A stretch of 64,000 nucleotides of DNA from Candidatus Nomurabacteria bacterium (GCA_023898465.1 CP060223.1:256001-320000); one strand, 5' to 3'; counted from the first letter of the stretch, positions 10,899 to 59,980 are shown. A program made the numbers and translations. Notes: generated by a model from the letters alone, not told the origin.

Positions 10899-10975
10899 AC
10901 TCAGACCTCCGTTGAGTTATGAAGGTGCTTCCTCCTATAGAGAAGTGTAGACGCATTGCGCATCTTCGACAATAC

Positions 10976-11003
10976 TTGACAACCCACTTCACAGGAGTAC
11001 ACT
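10976..11003 (+). promoter_or_regulatory. Sigma70-like promoter inside duplicated leader module (copy 1)
   Basis: TTGACA, 16-nt spacer, TACACT; the identical element recurs at 14573-14600. Confidence 0.5.
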
Positions 11004-11225
11004 AAATGCACAATTGGTGGCGATCTCTGCCTGGCACTGACCAGGTTGTCCGGAGACGCCATGTTTTTGTATGCGCGTGTTCTTCCTCCTTGCCGCAGGG
11101 TGTAGCTCGGCTCCGCTCGCTACCCATTTCTCGGCATCGGTCTCTTTGCGATGATCGAAACGAAGAGCGTCTTTTTCTACTCTCCTGCAGGGGCGGTGCG
11201 GGAGCGCGGAATAGTTCCGGGCTTC

Positions 11226-11243
11226 ATTTCCTCACATGAGGAA
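11226..11243 (+). promoter_or_regulatory. Conserved 8-bp inverted repeat TTTCCTCA-CA-TGAGGAAA in leader (copy 1): candidate operator or RNA hairpin
   Basis: Perfect 8+8 inverted repeat with 2-nt spacer; identical copy at 14730-14747 upstream of the paralogous lipoprotein gene. Confidence 0.45.
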
Positions 11244-11290
11244 AGCGGCTTTGTTGCCGTTTTGCACCTTGAAATGCATGGAGGTTCGCC

Positions 11291-12028
11291 ATGACTTGGC
11301 GTTTCCGACTCTTCCTGCTCATGGCCATCGCGTTGACCATGACACCCCTCGCTTTCATGACCGGCTGCCAGGAGCTGCCGACGGAGGGGGATTCACAGGA
11401 TCAAGTGGTTGAGAGTCCGGAAGCTCAACCCGGTCCAGCGATTCAGTCTACTGGGCCCGAATGGTATAATCAGGTCGTAAGTGAAGCAAAGTACACATTG
11501 TGCCAGCTTCGAAACGGCACATCGCATGAGGTCTATCAGGGTAAGGCTATGGGTGATTGGCCCTACCCACATCAAGGGGATTGTTGTAACGCCCTTGGTG
11601 TAGTCCGTCAATATATGTACGGTGGTGGCTCTCCAGGACCGCTTGGCGAATGGAATGGCTTCCAGCAAGGCGGTTGGTGCAAGTTCTTTGTCAACTTGGT
11701 GCTCTACCGCTCTAGCTATGGCTACCCGGGCGGACATTTGCTCTTGCCCACTTCTACGTATCGTTACAATAATCCACGCCCGGTTTCCGAAGCACAACCT
11801 GGATGGATCTTGCAGTCAGAAACACTACCTCATACTGCGATCGTAGTAGAACGACTAGGCGGTGGCTTGGATGTAATCGATTCAAACTGGATCGGAACTT
11901 ACAAGCGTCCGGACGGAAGTTATTACTACTCATATGCCATCGCAAGGCATGAAATCACAAATACGGAGTTGGATCGCTACGATTTCATGGCATATCGTCC
12001 GCATGAGGCGTGCGTGCTGCATAACTAG
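11291..12028 (+). CDS. Secreted lipoprotein with CHAP-domain peptidoglycan amidase/endopeptidase
   Basis: Signal peptide plus lipobox (LAFMTGC). CHAP catalytic Cys motif GGWCKFFV and His motif LPHTAIVVERLGGGLDVIDSNW. Confidence 0.7.
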   Translation: MTWRFRLFLLMAIALTMTPLAFMTGCQELPTEGDSQDQVVESPEAQPGPAIQSTGPEWYNQVVSEAKYTLCQLRNGTSHEVYQGKAMGDWPYPHQGDCCNALGVVRQYMYGGGSPGPLGEWNGFQQGGWCKFFVNLVLYRSSYGYPGGHLLLPTSTYRYNNPRPVSEAQPGWILQSETLPHTAIVVERLGGGLDVIDSNWIGTYKRPDGSYYYSYAIARHEITNTELDRYDFMAYRPHEACVLHN

Positions 12029-14470: not shown

Positions 14471-14572
14471 CCTTTCCAGTCCGTCAGGAATCCAACAGAG
14501 CCTGGGATCATCGATCTCGGGCTCTTCTCTTTTTGATACGCTCCAGAATGAAAAAGTGAAGTTTACTATTAC

Positions 14573-14600
14573 TTGACAACCCACTTCACAGGAGTACACT
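14573..14600 (+). promoter_or_regulatory. Sigma70-like promoter inside duplicated leader module (copy 2)
   Basis: Identical TTGACA-16-TACACT as at 10976-11003. Confidence 0.5.
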
Positions 14601-14793
14601 AAATGCACAATTGGTGGCGATCTCTGCCTGGCACTGACCAGGATGTCTGGAGACGCCATGTTTTTGTATAGGCGTATTCCACCCTCCCTTGCCGTGGCGT
14701 TGGGGAGCGCGGAATAGTTCCGGGCTTCATTTCCTCACATGAGGAAAGCGGCTTTGTTGCCGTTTTGCACTTTGAAATGCATGGAGGTTCGCC

Positions 14794-15492
14794 ATGACTT
14801 GGCGTTTCCGACTCTTCCTGCTCATGGCCATCGCGTTGACCATGACACCCCTCGCTTTCATGACCGGCTGTCAGGAGCTGCCGACGGAGGGGGAGACTTC
14901 GGTGATCTCTGATGAGTTGCCGGATGCTTCACCCTCAGCTCAGTCAAGCCCGATGACTTGGCCCTCTTCGATCCAGGATTTCAAACTCCCTTATGATGGG
15001 ATCCGGGATGCATGCGGGGGTCAGATTTGGAAGGTTGTTTGCGGGTACGGATGTGGTTATCATCACAACACAAACTACATGGCCGCCGCGTACCATTCGA
15101 TTGATCTTGTACGGCAGGATGCGCCGACCACTCATAGCGCAGTACTCGCTCCGGCGCGTGGCATCGTTTCGTTTGTCGGATGGAGGAATGGGTACGGTTG
15201 GTGCGTGGAGATGGATCATCGAAACGGCTGGAAGTCGCTTGTGGCCCATCTCGAAACGGATCCTTGGGAATTCGTCCATACCTATGACGACCTGCGGCAG
15301 GGGACTTTCCTGGGCTATGCAGGGAACAGCGGAGCGAGTACGACACCCCACATTCACTTCTCGGTGTGGCGGAACAACGTCACTCATACGCTCGATGGCG
15401 TATCGTTGATCAACCCGCGTCTAAATGGGCGATACAATTCCGGCAATGATTATGTTGCGCCACCGACGGGAAATCCGAACCCGATTCCTTAA
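14794..15492 (+). CDS. Secreted lipoprotein with M23 (LytM) family metallopeptidase domain
   Basis: N-terminal 33 aa are identical to the CHAP lipoprotein (MTWRFRLFLLMAIALTMTPLAFMTGCQELPTEG). M23 motifs HSIDL (HxxxD) and GNSGASTTPHIHFSV (HxH). Confidence 0.75.
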   Translation: MTWRFRLFLLMAIALTMTPLAFMTGCQELPTEGETSVISDELPDASPSAQSSPMTWPSSIQDFKLPYDGIRDACGGQIWKVVCGYGCGYHHNTNYMAAAYHSIDLVRQDAPTTHSAVLAPARGIVSFVGWRNGYGWCVEMDHRNGWKSLVAHLETDPWEFVHTYDDLRQGTFLGYAGNSGASTTPHIHFSVWRNNVTHTLDGVSLINPRLNGRYNSGNDYVAPPTGNPNPIP

Positions 15493-15668
15493 CACGATAG
15501 CGGAGAAGGTTTTTCATTAGAAAGCCTTCTCCGCTGTCTCTCCTCTCTATGAATAGTCATGTTGCTATTCTTTCTGTTAGCGATCACCATCCTTTTAGTT
15601 GATTTAGGATTAAAACTATAATTACGTTATTCTGGAGCATTTTCTCATAATATCGTAATCTTACTACT

Positions 15669-37381: not shown

Positions 37382-37456
37382 GGCCCTATCGTCTAGTGGC
37401 TAGGACGCATGGTTCTCATCCATGTAACAGGGGTTCGATTCCCCTTAGGGCTACCA
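37382..37456 (+). tRNA. tRNA-Glu (anticodon CUC), CCA encoded
   Basis: Strong similarity to canonical tRNA-Glu (TCGTCTAGTGGCTAGGAC D-arm; anticodon loop TTCTCAT; T-arm GGGGTTCGATTCCCC; acceptor GGCCCTA/TAGGGCT with G1-U72). Confidence 0.85.
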
Positions 37457-37610
37457 GCCCGCTTAGCGGGCTCTGCTGATAAGGATAGAAGAAAGTAAAA
37501 GTGGAATGTTTAGCATGTTGTTTTATAAGTTAAGGAATCGAACGGGCGAGGACGTCTGCCAGCGGCAGGCGACCGCAAGCCCCGGCCTGAAGTCCCGATA
37601 GGGACGGAAT

Positions 37611-37634
37611 GGTCGATTCCCCTTAGGGCTACCA
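37611..37634 (+). repeat. Direct repeat of the 3' 24-25 nt of tRNA-Glu (candidate att scar, or a tRNA-like RNA 3' end)
   Basis: GGTCGATTCCCCTTAGGGCTACCA matches tRNA positions 37432-37456 apart from a 1-nt deletion, and lies 155 bp downstream. Confidence 0.7.
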
Positions 37635-37927
37635 CGGGCCATTGCGCCGTGCGGACTGCGTCCGACCAGGTCGGACTCCGCCCTTACGGCGCATGTCCCT
37701 TTCCCCATTGCAAACAGTCCCTCTCGGCAGCCTCGAGGTCCTTGGTTTGCAACGGGGGCCCCGATAAGAGTGCGGGCCCAAGTGCTCGGCATTACAAAGC
37801 GTCCCAGAAAAAATGCCAGACACAAGTCTTCGGCATTTAATGAGAAGAAGACGTAGGTCAACTTCAGAGTGAGTCACCACAAACATCGTCGCTGCGCTAG
37901 AGGCAGCATAATTCAGGAGGAAAAAAT

Positions 37928-38467
37928 ATGTCACGTAGCGTACTCATTTTCATCGTACTCCTCGTTATCCTCGCAGTAGGCGGTGGAATTGTTTGGTGGA
38001 TGGTCACCAACCCAAGCGAAAATAGCAACACAAATAATGCCGTTGTCGCGAATACCAACACTGAGGTGAATGCAAATGCTGCACCGAATATTGATGTACA
38101 GGCCGGTGCGGTGGATGTAGGACGAGAAGCCTTGCTGACCAGTGCGAACTTCCGCGCCAGCTCAGCTTCATTGCTCAGCGAATTTGACGGCCTAAGCGCC
38201 GCTGAAGATAAAAGCTACCTGGTTGTCTATTACATGTTGACGCCTTACGAAGGATCAAGCGAAAACGTGCCAAATCTGAACGATCAAAACGTTTCAGTCA
38301 GCAGCGGTGACACTTCCTATACACTGCAAGCAATTGGCACCACCCAGAGCGAAACTGATGGCGAAGAACTTGGCTATCTGCGTTTCGAAGTGCCTGTTGA
38401 CGCAAGCGGATTTGTCCTAACGATTTTAGACGGCGACATAGAGCAGACGATTGATCTGGGCTTTTAA
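37928..38467 (+). CDS. Hypothetical secreted/membrane-anchored protein
   Basis: Strong RBS AGGAGGA; N-terminal TM; Asn/Thr-rich linker; no family recognised. Confidence 0.5.
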   Translation: MSRSVLIFIVLLVILAVGGGIVWWMVTNPSENSNTNNAVVANTNTEVNANAAPNIDVQAGAVDVGREALLTSANFRASSASLLSEFDGLSAAEDKSYLVVYYMLTPYEGSSENVPNLNDQNVSVSSGDTSYTLQAIGTTQSETDGEELGYLRFEVPVDASGFVLTILDGDIEQTIDLGF

Positions 38468-54949: not shown

Positions 54950-55216
54950 ATGGCTTCACTGCAGGTTTTTGTGCAAGAGGGCTCCAGGAAGCTCGTGCCT
55001 TTGGAAATCGTACTGGACGGAGGGCGTTTGACCTTCCGGGTGATTACCTCGCTCGGAGAAATGGGGGATACTGAGGCGCGCAGTGTGCTTGCCTCCTTGG
55101 TGGAGACCTGCCAAGGCGAGGGCTTGGCGTATACTCCAGAGTGCATTCGGGATGGAGATCGGCATGTGATCGACATGCTCTTTTTTACCCTGAATGCAAA
55201 GCCCACCACCTCGTGA
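54950..55216 (+). CDS. Hypothetical small protein
   Basis: RBS GGGAGGGAAG before ATG at 54950; 88 aa; no family. Confidence 0.4.
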   Translation: MASLQVFVQEGSRKLVPLEIVLDGGRLTFRVITSLGEMGDTEARSVLASLVETCQGEGLAYTPECIRDGDRHVIDMLFFTLNAKPTTS

Positions 55217-55264: not shown

Positions 55265-56362
55265 TTAGACGTCGCGTACTCGGAATGACTTCCAGGCCAG
55301 TAAGAAGGACAGGAGAATCCAGCCACCCAGGATGCTGAACTCATAACCGAAGTCACTTATTGGGCTGCCATTTACTGCTACGCCACGTAAGACCTTGAGC
55401 AGTGAAGTGAGTGGCAAGAAGTCAACAATCCGTTCCACAGCTGGTGGTAACATGTCAGGCGAGAAAAAGACGCCAGACAAGAACATCATCGGCGTGGTGA
55501 AAGCATTAGACATTGCCTCAGCAGTATTCACTGTTTTTGCTTGTCCAGCCACAAAGAATCCGATGTTGAGGAAGACGATTGTGCCAATAAGTGTAACCAG
55601 AGTAAGCAGTAACAAGCTGCCGTGAATTTCGACACCAAAGACTAAGCGGGCCACGCTGAGAATTACCGTGATCTGCATTAAAGACAGCACGAGATAAGAT
55701 CCAACCTCAGCCACTAAGAAATTTCGTACCTTAATCGGCGTAGCTAATAAACGCTTGAGGATTTTTCGTTCACGATAGCGCGTAATGCCCACAGCAATAC
55801 CAATGATGGCCGAGAACATGATAGCCATGCCCAGGATGCCCGGGGTAAGGAAATCGAGGTATTTCACATCTTGACCCTGCACACCCTCGGTTGCCACGGT
55901 GAAAATAGGTTGGGCGCCCGCGATTTGCAGATTTACCTTATTTAAAAAGTCATTAAGCACGCTGACGATAATACCGCTCTGCTGATTTGTTTCATCCAGT
56001 ATAACGGTGAAGTTGAGCGGCTCAGTTACTTCATTTTGGGGGACTTGGCCATAGGCGTCTGGGATAACAATAATCCCATCGAGCTCACCATCTTTCATGC
56101 TTTGCACCGCCTCATCCTTATTCGTAATATCGGATTCAGTGAAAATTTCTAAGGAGAACATTTGCTCGCGCAGCATTTGAGAGGATTCAGTTTGTGCCTC
56201 ATCAATCACTGCAATATCAAAGGAGGCTGGAGCATCAAAATTAAATAAGCCAAAAATAACTAGGAAGAGCAGGGGAAAGACCAGCGACCAAAAGAGAGAC
56301 TGCCGGTCGCGAAACAGCATTTTGAGGTTGGAAAGGAAAAGCCTCCAGGTAGGGTTATTCAC
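55265..56362 (-). CDS. ABC-2 type transporter permease
   Basis: 365 aa; N-terminal TM plus large extracytoplasmic loop and 5 C-terminal TM typical of ABC-2 exporters; overlaps the ATPase gene. Confidence 0.8.
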   Translation of the reverse strand: MNNPTWRLFLSNLKMLFRDRQSLFWSLVFPLLFLVIFGLFNFDAPASFDIAVIDEAQTESSQMLREQMFSLEIFTESDITNKDEAVQSMKDGELDGIIVIPDAYGQVPQNEVTEPLNFTVILDETNQQSGIIVSVLNDFLNKVNLQIAGAQPIFTVATEGVQGQDVKYLDFLTPGILGMAIMFSAIIGIAVGITRYRERKILKRLLATPIKVRNFLVAEVGSYLVLSLMQITVILSVARLVFGVEIHGSLLLLTLVTLIGTIVFLNIGFFVAGQAKTVNTAEAMSNAFTTPMMFLSGVFFSPDMLPPAVERIVDFLPLTSLLKVLRGVAVNGSPISDFGYEFSILGGWILLSFLLAWKSFRVRDV

Positions 56363-57320
56363 GGAGTTTGCTCCCGGTTAAGTGCAAGAAGACATCCTCC
56401 AAGGTTGCTCGAGTGACTTCAATATCTTCCAAGTGCATTTGATGCTGCTCAGCCCAACGGATGAGTGGAGGGAGTACGGCTGAGGCGTGAGTTATTTGTA
56501 ATCGGTATGAGTTTGGCTCACCGTTCATTTCAGCTTTGATGACACCTTCCATGTTAGTGAATTCACTCACTTCTACAGCCTGCGGTGTTTTAAAAGCAAG
56601 ATGGGCAGACGCGTCCAGCTGATCAATCAGTGCCTTAGGCGTATCCAAAGCTACAATCTTACCGTGATCTATGACGCCAATACGATCACAAAGCTCCTCA
56701 GCTTCTTCCATATAGTGGGTGGTGAGGACGACGGTCTTGCCTTGTTCCTTAATCTTGCGAATGAATTGCCACATATGCCGACGCGCCTGTGGGTCCAGAC
56801 CAGTGGTCGGCTCATCCAAGAATACAATCTCCGGATCATTCACTAGGCTAACGGCAATTGAGAAACGTTGCTGCTGACCGCCGGATAATTCCTTTACCAG
56901 TGCTTTTCGCTTTTCGTAGAGGTCAACAATCTTCAGTAGCTCCTCAGCATTTTTTTGCTTTGGGTAAAAAGTGCCAAACAGTTTCAAAATTTCTTCCAGT
57001 GACAGGTAATCGTAAAAAGATGATGACTGTAGTTGGATACCAATGCGTTGCTTTACTTTTTCTACCTCGTGATGAGAATCAAAGCCAAGCACCTTGGCTG
57101 AGCCTCGGGTGGGTACTTGCAGGCCTTCAATTATTTCCAGTGTGGTGGTTTTCCCGGCGCCATTAGGACCCAGGAAGCCAAAAATTTCACCTTGGGCCAC
57201 TTGGAAACTAATGCCGTCCACTGCAGTAAGTTTGCCTGAGCCTTTACCCGGGAGAGGAAATTCTTTGACTAGTTCTTGTACTTCGATGACAGACATAAAG
57301 CAAAGGGGAGTGTAGTACAT
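56355..57320 (-). CDS. ABC transporter ATP-binding protein
   Basis: Walker A GPNGAGKTT, signature LSGGQQQRFSIA, Walker B VFLDEPTTGLD. Confidence 0.9.
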   Translation of the reverse strand: MYYTPLCFMSVIEVQELVKEFPLPGKGSGKLTAVDGISFQVAQGEIFGFLGPNGAGKTTTLEIIEGLQVPTRGSAKVLGFDSHHEVEKVKQRIGIQLQSSSFYDYLSLEEILKLFGTFYPKQKNAEELLKIVDLYEKRKALVKELSGGQQQRFSIAVSLVNDPEIVFLDEPTTGLDPQARRHMWQFIRKIKEQGKTVVLTTHYMEEAEELCDRIGVIDHGKIVALDTPKALIDQLDASAHLAFKTPQAVEVSEFTNMEGVIKAEMNGEPNSYRLQITHASAVLPPLIRWAEQHQMHLEDIEVTRATLEDVFLHLTGSKLRE

Positions 57321-57871
57321 TCAAATGTGGGTGTAAAGGGAGCATTTGACATATTTTCATATTGTTTTATCCTTAGTCAGGATCTTTCGAAGAAATCAAT
57401 AGAGATGGCCTAACCCGCTCTTGGGGTTGAAGTCAACGTTGTTGCATTTCTCGGGTCCCTTTGGGACTCATGCAACCGATCGACAAACTGTTCTTCGGAA
57501 CAGGGGTCTGAGCCAAAACCAGTGTCGTGTACGTTGTACGACGTTGCGACTCTGGGGTTGTGGGGCATGCAGTAGAGTTCCGTACAGAAACTCATCGAGT
57601 AAGAAAATCGAGGGTTGAGAAGCCCCACGATCTCGACTAGCATGTACCCTGGACTTCGGTCCGCTGGGTGTTCGTCCCTTCGTGGTATATCGGCCTTCAT
57701 GGTCGAGCGCACATCCATGGCTAAACAATAGAAAGATCCTTTTGACCAGGACCTAGTCCTGTGCTCTCGAGGGGTGACACCACGTGTGCTCACCCCTCTC
57801 TTTCTTGCTTGTTTTCTGCTTCTCGCCTAGACTGACCATAGCTCTTTTGTTTCGTCGATCGAGGAGGGACC

Positions 57872-58051
57872 ATGAGGTTGTTTCTTCTTTGTGTCACCAT
57901 CGTCGCCCTGCCAAGCATGTTTGGCTATGCGGTGCTATGGGCGAGTGCTCGAGGAGCAAAGGCCATCGAGGATGAGCTCCCTGACGACAGGGAAGGGCGG
58001 CGGGCAGCTCATTTGGCCAGATCGCTTGATCCACCTTTTCCTGACTACTAA
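57872..58051 (+). CDS. Small (59 aa) membrane-anchored protein, not in the ORF track
   Basis: RBS GAGGAGGGAC then ATG at 57872; hydrophobic N-terminus; followed by two hairpins, the second a T-tailed terminator (58071-58097). Confidence 0.4.
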   Translation: MRLFLLCVTIVALPSMFGYAVLWASARGAKAIEDELPDDREGRRAAHLARSLDPPFPDY

Positions 58052-58070
58052 GTCAGGTGCATTCCATTGA

Positions 58071-58097
58071 GACGACTTTGCCCGGAGTCGTCTTTTC
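58071..58097 (+). terminator. Rho-independent terminator
   Basis: GACGAC-loop-GTCGTC stem followed by TTTT. Confidence 0.55.
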
Positions 58098-58147
58098 ATA
58101 GCGTCTTTTCGAGAAAATTGCTATAGTGGAAGCTGAATTACGGGGGT

Positions 58148-59980
58148 ATGACGCAAAAATTTTCTTCATTAGAAAAAATAGCTGCCCAGCTTCGTTATGA
58201 TGTGCTCACCATGACGTCGCGGGCCGGATCAGGTCATCCATCATCTTGCTTATCCGCAGTCGAGATAATGACTGCTTTGTTTTTTGGAGGAGTATTTCAC
58301 GCTGATCTGACGAAGCCGGAGTATGCGAATAACGACCGACTTATTTTTTCAAAAGGTCATGCTGCTCCATTGCTCTATGCGCTCTACGCAAGTGCAGGTC
58401 AAGTAACGGAAAAAGAGCTGCTGAGTTTGCGTGCGTTCCAAAGTCCGCTGGAGGGGCACCCTAGTCGCGCTTTTCCTTACACTGAGGTGCCGACCGGATC
58501 GCTAGGACAAGGTTTATCCAATGGCATAGGTATGGCTGAGTACGCACACCGTCATCGTTTGTCGTATCACACCTATGTGCTTCTTGGTGACAGTGAAATG
58601 AGTGAAGGTTCAAACTGGGAGGCAATGGAGTATGCGGCCTCGCATAAGTTGAGTGCACTCGTGGCGCTTATTGACCTGAATGATTTAGGTCAAAGCATGC
58701 GCACTCTGCCACTCGCTAAGGCGGAACAATTAGCTGCTCGGATAAAGTCATTTGGATGGCAAGTCTATGTTGTTGATGGGCATACTATCCCACAACTCTT
58801 GTCCGTGTTGAGTAAGGCAAAAAAGAGTCTCCAAAAACCCGTAGCGATTATTGCTCGGACGGTAAAAGGGAAAGGCGTCTCTTTTATCGAGGGGCGTCAA
58901 GGCTGGCATGGAAAAGCGCTGAGCAATGAAGAGCTGGAAAAAGCTTTAAAAGAAATTCCGTATCCAAAAAATAGAGTGCGAGGAAAGCTAGCCCAGCCGC
59001 AGAAAAAATCCCTGCCAGAATCAACAGCACGTCCAGTGCCGAATTGCCAGTACCGTAAGAGCACTTCAGTTTCCACTCGACGGGCGGCTGCCCATGCACT
59101 TGTCCGATTGGCGCCAAAGTATCCGGAGCTGCTTGTCCTAGACACTGAGGTAGGAAACTCAACGCATACGGAAGACTTTGCCGAAGTGTATCCTGAGCGT
59201 TTTTTGCAGTGTGGCATAGCTGAACAAAATGCCGTTGGCATGGTTAATGGCTTAGCGCGTCGCGGCGCTTTACCAGTCTACGCTACCTTTAGCGCCTTTC
59301 TCACACGAGCCTTTGATCAGCTGCGCATGAATCAATACAGCGACACGCGTCAGGTGTATATTGGTACGCATTCGGGTGTTTCTATTGGCGCGGATGGTCC
59401 ATCGCAAATGGGTCTGCAGGACATTGCCATGTTTCGTTCGCTGGAAAAAAGCGTGGTGCTTTATCCATCTGATGCCTTTGCAGCTGAGCGCTTAGTTGAG
59501 GAGGCTATGAAGCAGAGCGGTATGGTCTATATCCGCGCGACCCGGCCTCGAGTACCTATACTGTACAGCGCAGGGACAAAGTTTATTGTCGGCGGCAGTC
59601 AGACTTTGCGTCAAAGTACAAATGATAAACTCACCATTCTCGCCGCTGGCATCACTGTGTTTGAGGCATTAAAAGCTGCTGATGCATTAGCTGGCAGGGG
59701 CGTTAAGGTGCGAGTGATCGACCTCTATAGTGTGAAGCCGCTTGATGTGTCAACCTTACGCAAGGCGGCTAAGCAAACGAAAGCCTTCATCGTTGTAGAG
59801 GATCATAACCCTGAGGGCGGTATTGCCGAAGCAGTGCGTAGTGCTTTTATCCAATGCCCAGTACCCATCTATAGCCTAGCGGTGCAAAAACGACCCAAGA
59901 GCGGAACGCCAGAAGAACTTTTAAAATATTGCAATATTGATGCCAGTGCCATACTTCGTAAAGCGCAGACACTCATATGA
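58148..59980 (+). CDS. tkt: Transketolase (single-chain)
   Basis: TPP-binding GHPSSCLSAVEIM and GDSEMSEGSNWEA; 610 aa. Confidence 0.9.
   Translation: MTQKFSSLEKIAAQLRYDVLTMTSRAGSGHPSSCLSAVEIMTALFFGGVFHADLTKPEYANNDRLIFSKGHAAPLLYALYASAGQVTEKELLSLRAFQSPLEGHPSRAFPYTEVPTGSLGQGLSNGIGMAEYAHRHRLSYHTYVLLGDSEMSEGSNWEAMEYAASHKLSALVALIDLNDLGQSMRTLPLAKAEQLAARIKSFGWQVYVVDGHTIPQLLSVLSKAKKSLQKPVAIIARTVKGKGVSFIEGRQGWHGKALSNEELEKALKEIPYPKNRVRGKLAQPQKKSLPESTARPVPNCQYRKSTSVSTRRAAAHALVRLAPKYPELLVLDTEVGNSTHTEDFAEVYPERFLQCGIAEQNAVGMVNGLARRGALPVYATFSAFLTRAFDQLRMNQYSDTRQVYIGTHSGVSIGADGPSQMGLQDIAMFRSLEKSVVLYPSDAFAAERLVEEAMKQSGMVYIRATRPRVPILYSAGTKFIVGGSQTLRQSTNDKLTILAAGITVFEALKAADALAGRGVKVRVIDLYSVKPLDVSTLRKAAKQTKAFIVVEDHNPEGGIAEAVRSAFIQCPVPIYSLAVQKRPKSGTPEELLKYCNIDASAILRKAQTLI

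What the first reader, a model, noticed from the sequence alone, without database searches (positions are those of the whole stretch)
57321..58100. GC-rich, hairpin-dense 550-nt intergenic region plus unannotated 59-aa ORF upstream of tkt
Between the divergently oriented ABC ATPase gene (ends 57320, minus strand) and tkt lies about 800 bp with about 58% GC. It contains multiple perfect stems (TTGCAT...ATGCAA; GAGGGGTGA-N13-TCACCCCTC; GTCGT-N9-ACGAC). The only ORF-track entry here is a reverse-strand ORF lacking an RBS. A small ORF (57872-58051, RBS GAGGAGG, hydrophobic N-terminus) is followed by two hairpins including a T-tailed terminator. This looks like a structured RNA (riboswitch or sRNA) controlling a small membrane peptide, or an independent ncRNA gene.
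Basis: seen in the sequence. Interest (0 to 1): 0.5.

Follow-up and report, generated by a model that had tools for sequence, protein, structure and literature searches.

The report
Orphan structured RNA leader with small ORF
The longest non-coding gap in this window, from a candidate-phyla-radiation bacterium, folds on the + strand into a very stable ~430-nt RNA ending in a terminator hairpin just upstream of a 59-codon membrane-peptide ORF, but it matches no known RNA or protein family, no relative could be found, and so it stays a single-genome candidate.

Summary
The GC figure is wrong: 50-52%, not 58%, against 46.5% for the window.

The + strand of 57376-57746 folds into a multi-helix domain closed by a 9-bp terminal helix (z = -5.0; - strand -3.0). 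It holds two of the four cUUCGg hairpins on the + strand of the 64 kb. A promoter-like site precedes it and a -20 kcal/mol terminator-like hairpin with a U-rich tail follows it. It is the most stable 431-nt window of 848 after GC correction.

Rfam 15 gives no match, even at E<=10. There is no intron-containing tRNA. No protein similarity appears in any of the six frames against 5.8 billion proteins. The 59-aa ORF has no relatives, and its coding score is borderline.

The organism has no close relatives (nearest transketolase 59% identical). Four tkt relatives have no long gap upstream of tkt and 80 ABC-ATPase relatives show no similar sequence, so covariation cannot be tested. Other long gaps in this window are also strongly structured and precede SD-led genes for exported proteins.

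Best reading: a lineage-specific structured leader or attenuator RNA for a small exported peptide. Interest is modest.

The parts
57346..57373 (+). Promoter-like site, TTGACA-16 nt-TATCCT (10 of 12 matches). The predicted start is near 57380.
   Evidence: The scan found 3 sites in 1.4 kb against 1.3 expected, so this is weak on its own. The predicted start coincides with the 5' end of the closing helix.
57376..57746 (+). Multi-helix RNA domain closed by a terminal helix. It comprises about 12 helices.
   Evidence: MFE -142.2 kcal/mol, z -5.02. The - strand gives -118.4 kcal/mol and z -3.01. 15 of 146 pairs are G-U, which explains the strand asymmetry.
57380..57388 (+). 5' strand of the closing helix P1 (GGAUCUUUC). 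It pairs with 57731-57739 (GAAAGAUCC). GUCA 57376-57379 and UGAC 57743-57746 extend the helix.
   Evidence: 9 perfect pairs with mean pair probability 0.97.
57731..57739 (+). 3' strand of the closing helix P1.
57488..57503 (+). cUUCGg tetraloop hairpin with a 6-bp stem (CUGUUC UUCG GAACAG).
   Evidence: dG -7.6, z -3.7.
57612..57625 (+). GNRA (GAGA) tetraloop hairpin, GGGUU GAGA AGCCC.
57650..57663 (+). Second cUUCGg tetraloop hairpin.
57747..57761 (+). Short linker hairpin, CAGGAC CUA GUCCUG.
   Evidence: pair probability 0.99.
57769..57807 (+). Intrinsic-terminator-like hairpin (9+3 bp, dG -20.3 kcal/mol) followed by UCUUUCUU.
   Evidence: z -4.5. The consensus terminator scan did not list it, for reasons I did not examine.
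57805..57833 (+). Weak promoter-like site, TTGCTT-17 nt-TAGACT (8 of 12). It could give the ORF its own start.
   Evidence: Read from the sequence. It falls below the scan threshold, so this is inference only.
57861..57867 (+). Shine-Dalgarno sequence GAGGAGG, 4 nt before the ATG.
   Evidence: Only 10 of 54 genes in the window have an SD of 5 nt or more, at spacings of 4-9 nt.
57872..58051 (+). 59-aa ORF with a hydrophobic N-terminus (residues 2-25, then ASA-RG) and a charged tail. It has no relatives.
   Evidence: only its own identical sequence turns up, called by Prodigal and by NCBI as H6760_01515. The codon score of -0.009 is borderline. The region 57835-58100 has z -1.07, so it folds like ordinary mRNA.
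58040..58057 (+). Hairpin across the stop codon, CCUGACU ACUA AGUCAGG.
   Evidence: dG -9.8, z -3.6.
58069..58097 (+). Terminator-like hairpin (AGACGACU/AGUCGUCU core) followed by UUUUC.
   Evidence: dG -13.6, z -3.5.
57410..57793 (-). 127-aa reverse-strand ORF, judged spurious.
   Evidence: It has no Pfam, NCBIfam, PHROG or PADLOC match. A full HMMER search of 1.8 billion representatives gave only multi-stretch hits to long proteins of 641-1665 aa, which I read as compositional bias. Gene callers did not call it. The SD-like GAGGG sits directly against the GTG start.

Best explanation
The + strand of about 57380-57810 encodes a genuine, lineage-specific structured RNA. It matches no described family, and it most likely acts as a long cis-acting leader of the 59-aa ORF.

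Proposed mechanism:
1. Transcription starts near 57380 from the TTGACA/TATCCT site.
2. The first ~360 nt fold into a multi-helix domain closed by the 9-bp helix 57380-57388/57731-57739.
3. A short hairpin follows, then a strong terminator-like hairpin with a U-rich tail (57769-57807).
4. Transcripts that stop there give a stable ~430-nt RNA. Transcripts that read through carry the GAGGAGG site and the small ORF for an exported or membrane peptide, and end at the second terminator (58069-58097).
5. tkt then has its own extended -10 promoter (TGCTATAGT, 58119-58127).

Shown: the fold statistics, the strand bias, the tetraloops, the hairpins, the ORF and its SD, and the lack of any protein or Rfam match.

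Inferred: the transcription start, termination and read-through, translation of the ORF, and any signal sensed by the domain.

I put about 0.6 on 'a real structured RNA element' and about 0.4 on the specific leader/attenuator reading.
For: - Rfam-independent folding signal: z -5.02 on the + strand against -3.01 on the - strand for 57376-57746, and rank 1 of 848 for GC-corrected MFE against rank 124 for the - strand.
- Closing helix with pair probability 0.97, starting exactly at the promoter-predicted start.
- Two cUUCGg hairpins and one GNRA hairpin. About 0.03 UUCG hairpins would be expected in 430 nt.
- Terminator hairpin of -20.3 kcal/mol with 6 U in the 8 bases after the stem.
- No coding signal: the six-frame search found nothing at E<=10, and the reverse ORF has no real homologs.
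- This is the largest non-coding gap in a densely packed window.
- The ORF lies 65 nt downstream on the same strand, has one of the strongest SDs in the window, and its region is not unusually structured (z -1.07).
- Genome context: five of the ten other strong-SD genes (11291, 13463, 14794, 16941, 37928) also sit behind non-coding gaps longer than 200 nt, most of them structured, and all five encode exported or membrane proteins.
Against: - There is no conservation or covariation evidence at all. The RNA and the ORF are seen only in identical copies of one organism.
- No antiterminator alternative to the terminator hairpin was found by inspection.
- A 360-nt sensing domain would be larger than any described riboswitch aptamer I know of.
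- The -10 element TATCCT is unlike the TATAGT boxes seen near many genes here.
- The ORF's codon score is borderline, and chance ORFs abound in that stop-poor stretch.
- Other intergenic gaps of this genome are comparably structured, so a low z-score is not specific.
- A weak promoter-like site between the terminator and the ORF could uncouple the two.
Confidence: 0.4

Rival explanations
1. A stand-alone, trans-acting or scaffold ncRNA gene of about 430 nt with its own promoter and terminator. The 59-aa ORF would be a separate unit, driven from the weak TTGCTT/TAGACT site, or a chance ORF.
For: It shares the structural evidence of the best explanation. The terminator is strong, no antiterminator is evident, and the domain is larger than known riboswitch aptamers. 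The ORF has no relatives and a borderline codon score.
Against: No homolog turned up in Rfam, phage or plasmid records, IMG/VR, or 460 kb of related loci. A housekeeping-type ncRNA would be expected in relatives. The co-oriented SD-led ORF only 65 nt away fits a leader better.
Confidence: 0.25
2. Non-functional spacer: a remnant of acquired or decayed DNA whose higher GC and hairpins have no role beyond promoters and terminators.
For: The sequence is restricted to a single lineage. GC is 52% against 46.5% for the window. Other gaps in the window are also structured. A second GC-rich non-coding stretch, next to tRNA-Glu, carries an att-like repeat.
Against: The six-frame search shows no trace of a decayed protein gene. 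The + over - stability difference (24 kcal/mol for 57376-57746), the cUUCGg loops only on the + strand and the closing helix at the predicted start are not expected of junk. The genome is otherwise tightly packed.
Confidence: 0.22
3. A type I toxin-antitoxin-like module: the 59-aa hydrophobic peptide is a membrane toxin whose mRNA carries a long structured 5' region that limits translation.
For: The peptide is small with one hydrophobic helix and a charged tail. Its upstream RNA is highly structured. It has no relatives, as is common for such toxins.
Against: No antisense promoter or antitoxin candidate was found on the - strand. There is no match to any toxin family in Pfam, NCBIfam or PADLOC. 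The SD is not sequestered in a stable local fold (57850-57905 has z -0.66). A terminator separates the structure from the ORF. The only 8-nt complementarity, 57773-57780 with 57891-57898, is at chance level.
Confidence: 0.07
4. A highly divergent member of a known RNA class: RNase P RNA, tmRNA, 6S, SRP, a group I intron (common in Patescibacteria tRNA genes), or a known large ornate RNA.
For: The size and helix density are in the range of RNase P RNA, tmRNA and group I introns. PMC13011429 reports divergent Patescibacteria group I introns that RF00028 misses.
Against: No hit to any of 4227 Rfam families even at E<=10 with permissive filters. ARAGORN finds no tmRNA and, with introns allowed, no tRNA exons at default stringency. 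I saw no RNase P P4 motif (GGAAAGUCC) and no T-arm when reading the sequence. There is no host gene for an intron, because the ABC promoter abuts the 5' side.
Confidence: 0.03
5. The 127-aa reverse-strand ORF (57410-57793) is a real protein gene.
For: It is an uninterrupted ORF spanning most of the GC-rich stretch.
Against: It has no family match and no true homolog among 1.8 billion representatives. Prodigal and NCBI did not call it. It has a GTG start with no spaced SD and a codon score of -0.086. Its composition, rich in R, S, T, P and C, is odd.
Confidence: 0.03

Closest known systems
Transcription-attenuating riboswitch or leader RNAs (for example cobalamin or T-box leaders)
   Same: A helix-closed structured domain at the 5' end of a transcript, then a terminator hairpin with a U-tract, then an SD and ORF on the same strand.
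   Different: No match to any Rfam riboswitch or leader model. The domain is about 360 nt, larger than described aptamers. No antiterminator was identified, the controlled gene is a 59-aa ORF without relatives, and the RNA is not seen in any other genome.
Large 'ornate' bacterial ncRNAs of unknown function (OLE, ROOL, GOLLD, raiA; PMC12286853)
   Same: Several hundred nucleotides with many helices and stable tetraloops, found as a long, relatively GC-rich intergenic region. From my own knowledge, OLE sits next to a gene for a membrane protein partner (oapA).
   Different: None of these models hit. Those families are defined by wide conservation and covariation, and here there is a single sequence. 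At 430 nt it is shorter than OLE (about 600 nt, my recollection), and, as far as I recall, than ROOL and GOLLD.
Type I toxin mRNAs with long structured 5' UTRs (tisB, hok, txpA/ratA; established knowledge)
   Same: A small one-helix hydrophobic peptide of 60 aa or fewer, encoded behind a highly folded RNA.
   Different: No antitoxin RNA was found, the SD is not sequestered, there is a terminator between the structure and the ORF, and no toxin family matches.
Group I introns in Patescibacteria tRNA genes (PMC13011429)
   Same: The same phylum, and some escape standard tools. Group I introns are structured RNAs of broadly similar size (my own knowledge).
   Different: There are no flanking tRNA exons and no RF00028 hit. 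The element is bounded by a promoter and a terminator, not by exons.

Membership tests
Any Rfam 15 family (riboswitches, RNase P, tmRNA, 6S, SRP, group I/II introns, OLE/ROOL/GOLLD/raiA/HEARO) | Covariance-model score at or above the family's gathering threshold | tested here: not met
   (whole window) found only two tRNAs elsewhere. One search (57200-58250, E<=10, permissive filters) gave only a 10.5-bit chance hit to a snoRNA, inside tkt.
Intron-containing tRNA gene (Patescibacteria group I intron) | tRNA 5' and 3' exons flanking the structured insert, with the anticodon loop interrupted | tested here: not met
   ARAGORN with introns of up to 1200 nt allowed found nothing at default or 90% stringency. 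Only implausible hits appeared at 80%.
Intron-containing tRNA gene (Patescibacteria group I intron) | Group I catalytic core (P3-P9, G-binding site) detectable by RF00028 or gpI_bact_tRNA | tested here: inconclusive
   RF00028 gave no hit at E<=10. The gpI_bact_tRNA model used in PMC13011429 was not available.
Riboswitch / attenuator leader (generic) | Helix-closed structured domain directly upstream of an expression platform and a co-oriented ORF | tested here: met
   P1 57380-57388/57731-57739, the terminator at 57769-57807, and the SD plus ORF at 57861-58051. All are predictions from a single sequence.
Riboswitch / attenuator leader (generic) | Mutually exclusive terminator and antiterminator pairing | tested here: inconclusive
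   Inspection of the folds showed no convincing alternative to the terminator stem. No systematic search was run.
Riboswitch / attenuator leader (generic) | Aptamer conserved across species with covariation | not testable with these tools
   No homologous sequence could be retrieved.
Type I toxin-antitoxin | Small hydrophobic toxin peptide | tested here: met
   The ORF is 59 aa with a hydrophobic stretch at residues 2-25.
Type I toxin-antitoxin | Antisense or divergent antitoxin sRNA complementary to the toxin mRNA | tested here: not met
   There is no - strand promoter-like site within 57340-58400 apart from the ABC promoter, and only chance-level complementarity.
Protein-coding gene or pseudogene in 57297-57871 | Similarity of some reading frame to a known protein | tested here: not met
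   Six-frame query against 5.8 billion proteins: none at E<=10. Reverse ORF against 1.8 billion representatives: only multi-stretch hits to long proteins, which I read as compositional bias. Pfam, NCBIfam, PHROGs and PADLOC: none.
Rho-independent terminator | GC-rich stem followed by a U-tract | tested here: met
   57769-57798 has dG -20.3 and the tail UCUUUCUU. 58069-58094 has dG -13.6 and the tail UUUUC. The strict consensus scan listed neither.

The most novel reading that the evidence does not exclude
A new class of large (~360-430 nt), helix-closed structured RNA, so far seen only in one deep-branching Patescibacteria lineage. It would act as a sensor or attenuator (or as a ribonucleoprotein scaffold) linked to a small exported peptide. 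It may be one of a wider set of long structured leaders that this organism places in front of genes for envelope proteins.
Probability: 0.2. Interest if true: 0.6.

Novelty: new member of a known kind. Interest (0 to 1): 0.3.

Why it matters
Patescibacteria have tiny, tightly packed genomes and few known regulators, so an 850-nt non-coding gap holding a 430-nt folded RNA is costly and probably kept for a reason. If it is real, it would add an RNA-based control element or an ncRNA to a phylum where, as far as I know, few RNAs beyond rRNA, tRNA, the usual housekeeping RNAs and group I introns have been described. It would also point to a habit of this organism: long structured leaders in front of SD-led genes for exported proteins. 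As it stands, it is a single-sequence candidate and cannot be ranked with validated RNA families.

Tried and rejected
- **Rfam.** Searched at the gathering threshold and at E<=10: nothing.
- **tRNA and tmRNA.** ARAGORN, with and without introns, found nothing. The idea came from PMC13011429.
- **Protein coding.** Pfam, NCBIfam, PHROGs and PADLOC on all local ORFs found nothing. Full HMMER of the 127-aa reverse ORF gave only hits I read as compositional bias. A concatenated six-frame query gave no hit.
- **Relatives through synteny.** Two GTDB Kerfeldbacteria loci (L007, L008) and two contigs of the best tkt homologs (L020, L021) have no long gap upstream of tkt. Eighty metagenome loci with ABC-ATPase relatives were mostly high-GC, suggesting distant organisms. 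nhmmer found nothing and blastn gave only one chance-level match (E 0.15).
- **Relatives of the 59-aa ORF.** None in the 5.8-billion-protein set, in JGI metagenomes or in IMG/VR.
- **DNA similarity.** One chance-level hit (E 0.8) in phage records, none in plasmid records. Three exact 19-21-mers from the RNA were absent from IMG/VR.
- **Strain variation.** Six other assemblies carry the locus. They are identical except for one SNP at 57342, outside the RNA.
- **Paralogs in the window.** None.
- **sRNA target scan.** RNAduplex against all translation-initiation regions gave long, bulged, unrealistic duplexes and was uninformative.
- **431-nt shuffle-based z-score scan.** A whole-window scan timed out twice. 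I replaced it with a 200-nt scan and a GC-regressed MFE ranking.
- **Covariance model.** I did not build one from the single sequence. The full domain exceeds the practical size limit, and there was no relevant sequence set to search.

Full report
**Source and setting**

The window comes from a candidate-phyla-radiation (Patescibacteria) genome. The 59-aa ORF is NCBI protein 'H6760_01515, MAG: Candidatus Nomurabacteria bacterium', on a contig of 1,082,586 bp. The nearest GTDB relatives by transketolase are Candidatus Kerfeldbacteria at 56-57% identity. The best transketolase homolog among 5.8 billion proteins is only 59% identical, so the organism has no close sequenced relatives.

The finding lies between a divergently transcribed DrrA-like ABC-2 exporter (ATPase 56355-57296, permease 55265-56362) and an operon of pentose-phosphate-type genes (tkt, ROK kinase, rpiB, rpe). 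The window is densely coding. The stretch 57297-58147 (851 nt) is by far its largest gap without a credible long gene.

**Checking the observation**

- TTGCAT 57442-57447 with ATGCAA 57470-57475.
- GAGGGGTGA 57769-57777 with TCACCCCTC 57790-57798, 12 nt apart.
- GTCGT, nine bases, then ACGAC at 57524-57542.

The 59-aa ORF (57872-58051), its GAGGAGG site 4 nt before the ATG, and the two hairpins after the stop codon are also there.

Two points need correction:
- GC is 50.4% over the whole gap, 52.0% over 57380-57810 and 55.6% over the ORF. No 200-nt window exceeds 56.5%, and the window mean is 46.5%. The stated 58% is too high.
- Gene callers start the ATPase at 57296, not 57320. A TTTACA-17-TACACT site puts that gene's transcription start about 57302.

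**Is the structure more than chance?**

Yes.
- The 431 nt 57400-57830 fold with z = -4.05 on the + strand and -2.73 on the - strand.
- With the 5' boundary moved to 57375, the fold gains a perfect 9-bp closing helix, GGAUCUUUC 57380-57388 with GAAAGAUCC 57731-57739 (pair probability 0.97). GUCA/UGAC extend it. It encloses about a dozen helices.
- This closed domain (57376-57746) has MFE -142.2 kcal/mol and z = -5.02 on the + strand, against -118.4 and -3.01 on the - strand. Fifteen of its 146 pairs are G-U, which accounts for the asymmetry.
- Among 848 windows of 431 nt across the 64 kb, 57380-57810 on the + strand has the most negative GC-corrected MFE. The - strand ranks 124. I added this window to the grid by hand.
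- Two of the four + strand hairpins with stems of at least 4 bp capped by UUCG lie here (57488-57503 and 57650-57663). Both have the classic C-G closing pair, and none is on the - strand of the region. A GAGA-capped hairpin sits at 57612-57625. About 0.03 UUCG hairpins would be expected in 430 nt.
- By contrast, the ORF segment 57835-58100 has z = -1.07 and a poorly defined ensemble. The structured element ends before the ORF.

**Flanking signals**

- A TTGACA-16-TATCCT site (57346-57373, 10 of 12 matches) predicts a start near 57380. That is the first base of the closing helix.
- After the domain come a short hairpin (57747-57761) and then the GAGGGGUGA/UCACCCCUC hairpin. It has dG -20.3 kcal/mol and z -4.5, and is followed by UCUUUCUU. 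The consensus terminator scan did not list it.
- A weak TTGCTT-17-TAGACT site (57805-57833, 8 of 12, read from the sequence) overlaps the tail.
- Next come the SD and the ORF, a stop-codon hairpin, and a second terminator-like hairpin (58069-58094 plus UUUUC, dG -13.6).
- tkt appears to have its own extended -10 element, TGCTATAGT, at 58119-58127.

**What it is not**

- It matches none of the 4227 Rfam families, either at the gathering threshold or at E<=10 with permissive filters. That covers all described riboswitches, RNase P, tmRNA, 6S, SRP, group I and II introns, and OLE, ROOL, GOLLD, raiA and HEARO.
- Prompted by a 2026 paper on group I introns hidden in Patescibacteria tRNA genes (PMC13011429), I ran ARAGORN with introns allowed. 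No tRNA exons flank the element.
- It is not detectably protein-coding. The 127-aa reverse ORF has no family match. A full HMMER search of 1.8 billion representatives gave only multi-stretch hits to long proteins, which I read as compositional bias.
- A concatenated six-frame translation of 57297-57871 found nothing at E<=10 among 5.8 billion proteins. A decayed known gene is therefore unlikely.
- There are no internal repeats of note, no copy elsewhere in the window, only a chance-level similarity (E 0.8) in phage records and none in plasmid records, and no exact core 19-21-mers in IMG/VR.

**The small ORF**

The sequence is MRLFLLCVTIVALPSMFGYAVLWASA|RGAKAIEDELPDDREGRRAAHLARSLDPPFPDY. It has an N-terminal hydrophobic helix ending in an ASA motif, so it could be a signal peptide or a membrane anchor. 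A charged tail follows.
- Prodigal and NCBI call it, but it has no relative in the protein database, in JGI metagenomes or in IMG/VR.
- It has no family match.
- Its codon-usage score (-0.009) falls between the 5th percentile of true coding chunks (0.007) and the 95th percentile of off-frame chunks (-0.037).
- The same stop-poor stretch carries four other ORFs of 46-63 codons, so an open frame alone means little.
- In its favour, only 10 of 54 genes in the window have an SD of 5 nt or more, at spacings of 4-9 nt. GAGGAGG at spacing 4 is among the strongest.

**Genome context that shapes the interpretation**

- Many genes here have no SD and a TATAGT box a few bases upstream of the start codon, which suggests short or absent leaders.
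- Strong-SD genes tend to sit behind long gaps. Five of the ten (11291, 13463, 14794, 16941, 37928) have more than 200 nt of non-coding sequence upstream, against about 5 of 44 other genes.
- Most of those gaps are themselves structured on the gene's strand, with z from -2.9 to -4.2; the gap before 13463 is the exception at -0.24.
- The downstream proteins are all exported or membrane proteins: lipoproteins, an M23 peptidase, a Big_7 protein, a 7TM protein and a membrane-anchored protein.

The locus under study fits this pattern as its largest example. That raises the odds that the ORF is real and that the RNA is its leader. It also lowers the claim that the region is a unique outlier.

**Comparative evidence could not be obtained**

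- Six other assemblies carry the locus, identical but for one SNP at 57342, upstream of the -35 element.
- Relatives with 56-59% identical tkt have only short gaps upstream of tkt.
- Eighty metagenome loci with ABC-ATPase relatives are mostly high-GC, suggesting distant organisms. nhmmer found no similarity and blastn only one chance-level match.
- The one AT-rich locus with a long upstream gap (L087) is also structured (z -4.16) but unrelated in sequence.

**Interpretation**

I put about 0.6 on a genuine + strand structured RNA element. Within that, I commit to the leader/attenuator reading (0.4). In this reading, transcription from about 57380 yields a helix-closed ~360-nt domain. Termination at 57769-57807 gives a ~430-nt RNA, and read-through expresses the small exported peptide.

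| Rival reading | Confidence |
|---|---|
| Stand-alone ncRNA with an unrelated neighbour ORF | 0.25 |
| Non-functional acquired or decayed spacer | 0.22 |
| Type I toxin-like module | 0.07 |
| Divergent member of a known RNA class | 0.03 |
| Real reverse-strand protein gene | 0.03 |

Shown: sequence features, fold statistics, strand bias, and the absence of matches. Inferred: transcript ends, termination and read-through, translation, and any ligand or partner.

**Novelty and interest**

The element belongs to no described family. Its general kind, an unclassified long structured intergenic RNA or leader found as a long, relatively GC-rich gap, is well known. With one sequence and no expression or covariation data, it is a reasonable candidate rather than a discovery. 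I score interest at 0.3. The most novel reading not excluded is a new large sensor or scaffold RNA class in Patescibacteria. I give that a probability of 0.2 and an interest of 0.6 if true.

Noticed in passing
window 37382-37900: tRNA-Glu(CTC) at 37382-37456 is followed at 37613-37634 by a 22-nt direct repeat of its 3' end (TCGATTCCCCTTAGGGCTACCA). After that comes a GC-rich (about 55%) non-coding stretch that is among the most stable folds of the window on both strands (z -4.2 and -3.1). It has no Rfam hit beyond the tRNA. It looks like an att-site duplication left by an integrated element, or a long leader of the membrane-anchored protein gene at 37928.
   Followed up: partly
window 10973-11391 and 14570-14894: Two near-identical copies (95% and 99%) of a promoter-like site, a ~280-nt structured leader, a GGAGG site and a lipoprotein signal peptide (MTWRFRLFLLMAIALTMTPLAFMTGC). 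They head two different genes: an unknown 245-aa protein and an M23 peptidase. This looks like a duplicated expression and export cassette.
   Followed up: partly
window 15493-15668: A short AT-rich gap (36% GC) has the most extreme fold score of the window: z -5.4 on the + strand and -4.0 on the - strand. The 200-nt window 15401-15600 has z -6.4. It is probably a strong terminator or a long inverted repeat between two genes.
   Followed up: no
whole window (gene starts): Only about a third of the genes have any SD-like motif. Many have a TATAGT box 7-20 nt upstream of the start codon, which suggests leaderless or very short-leader mRNAs. Strong-SD genes are enriched behind long structured gaps and encode exported or membrane proteins.
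   Followed up: partly
window 57296-57337: Gene callers start the ABC ATPase at the ATG at 57296 (313 aa), not at 57320. A TTTACA-17-TACACT site on the - strand would put its transcription start about 57302, giving a near-leaderless mRNA.
   Followed up: partly
window 54950-55216: An 88-aa ORF with no Pfam, NCBIfam or PADLOC match and only a weak PHROG hit (E 0.03), called by Prodigal, overlaps a strongly structured stretch (55001-55200 + strand, z -4.5; GC about 55%) just downstream of the ABC permease gene.
   Followed up: no
L087 1872-2337 (JGI contig Ga0180007_10003076): In an unrelated AT-rich metagenome contig, the 466-nt gap upstream of an ABC-ATPase relative (57% identical over residues 3-224) is also strongly structured on the divergent strand (z -4.16). 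It shares no sequence with the window's element.
   Followed up: no
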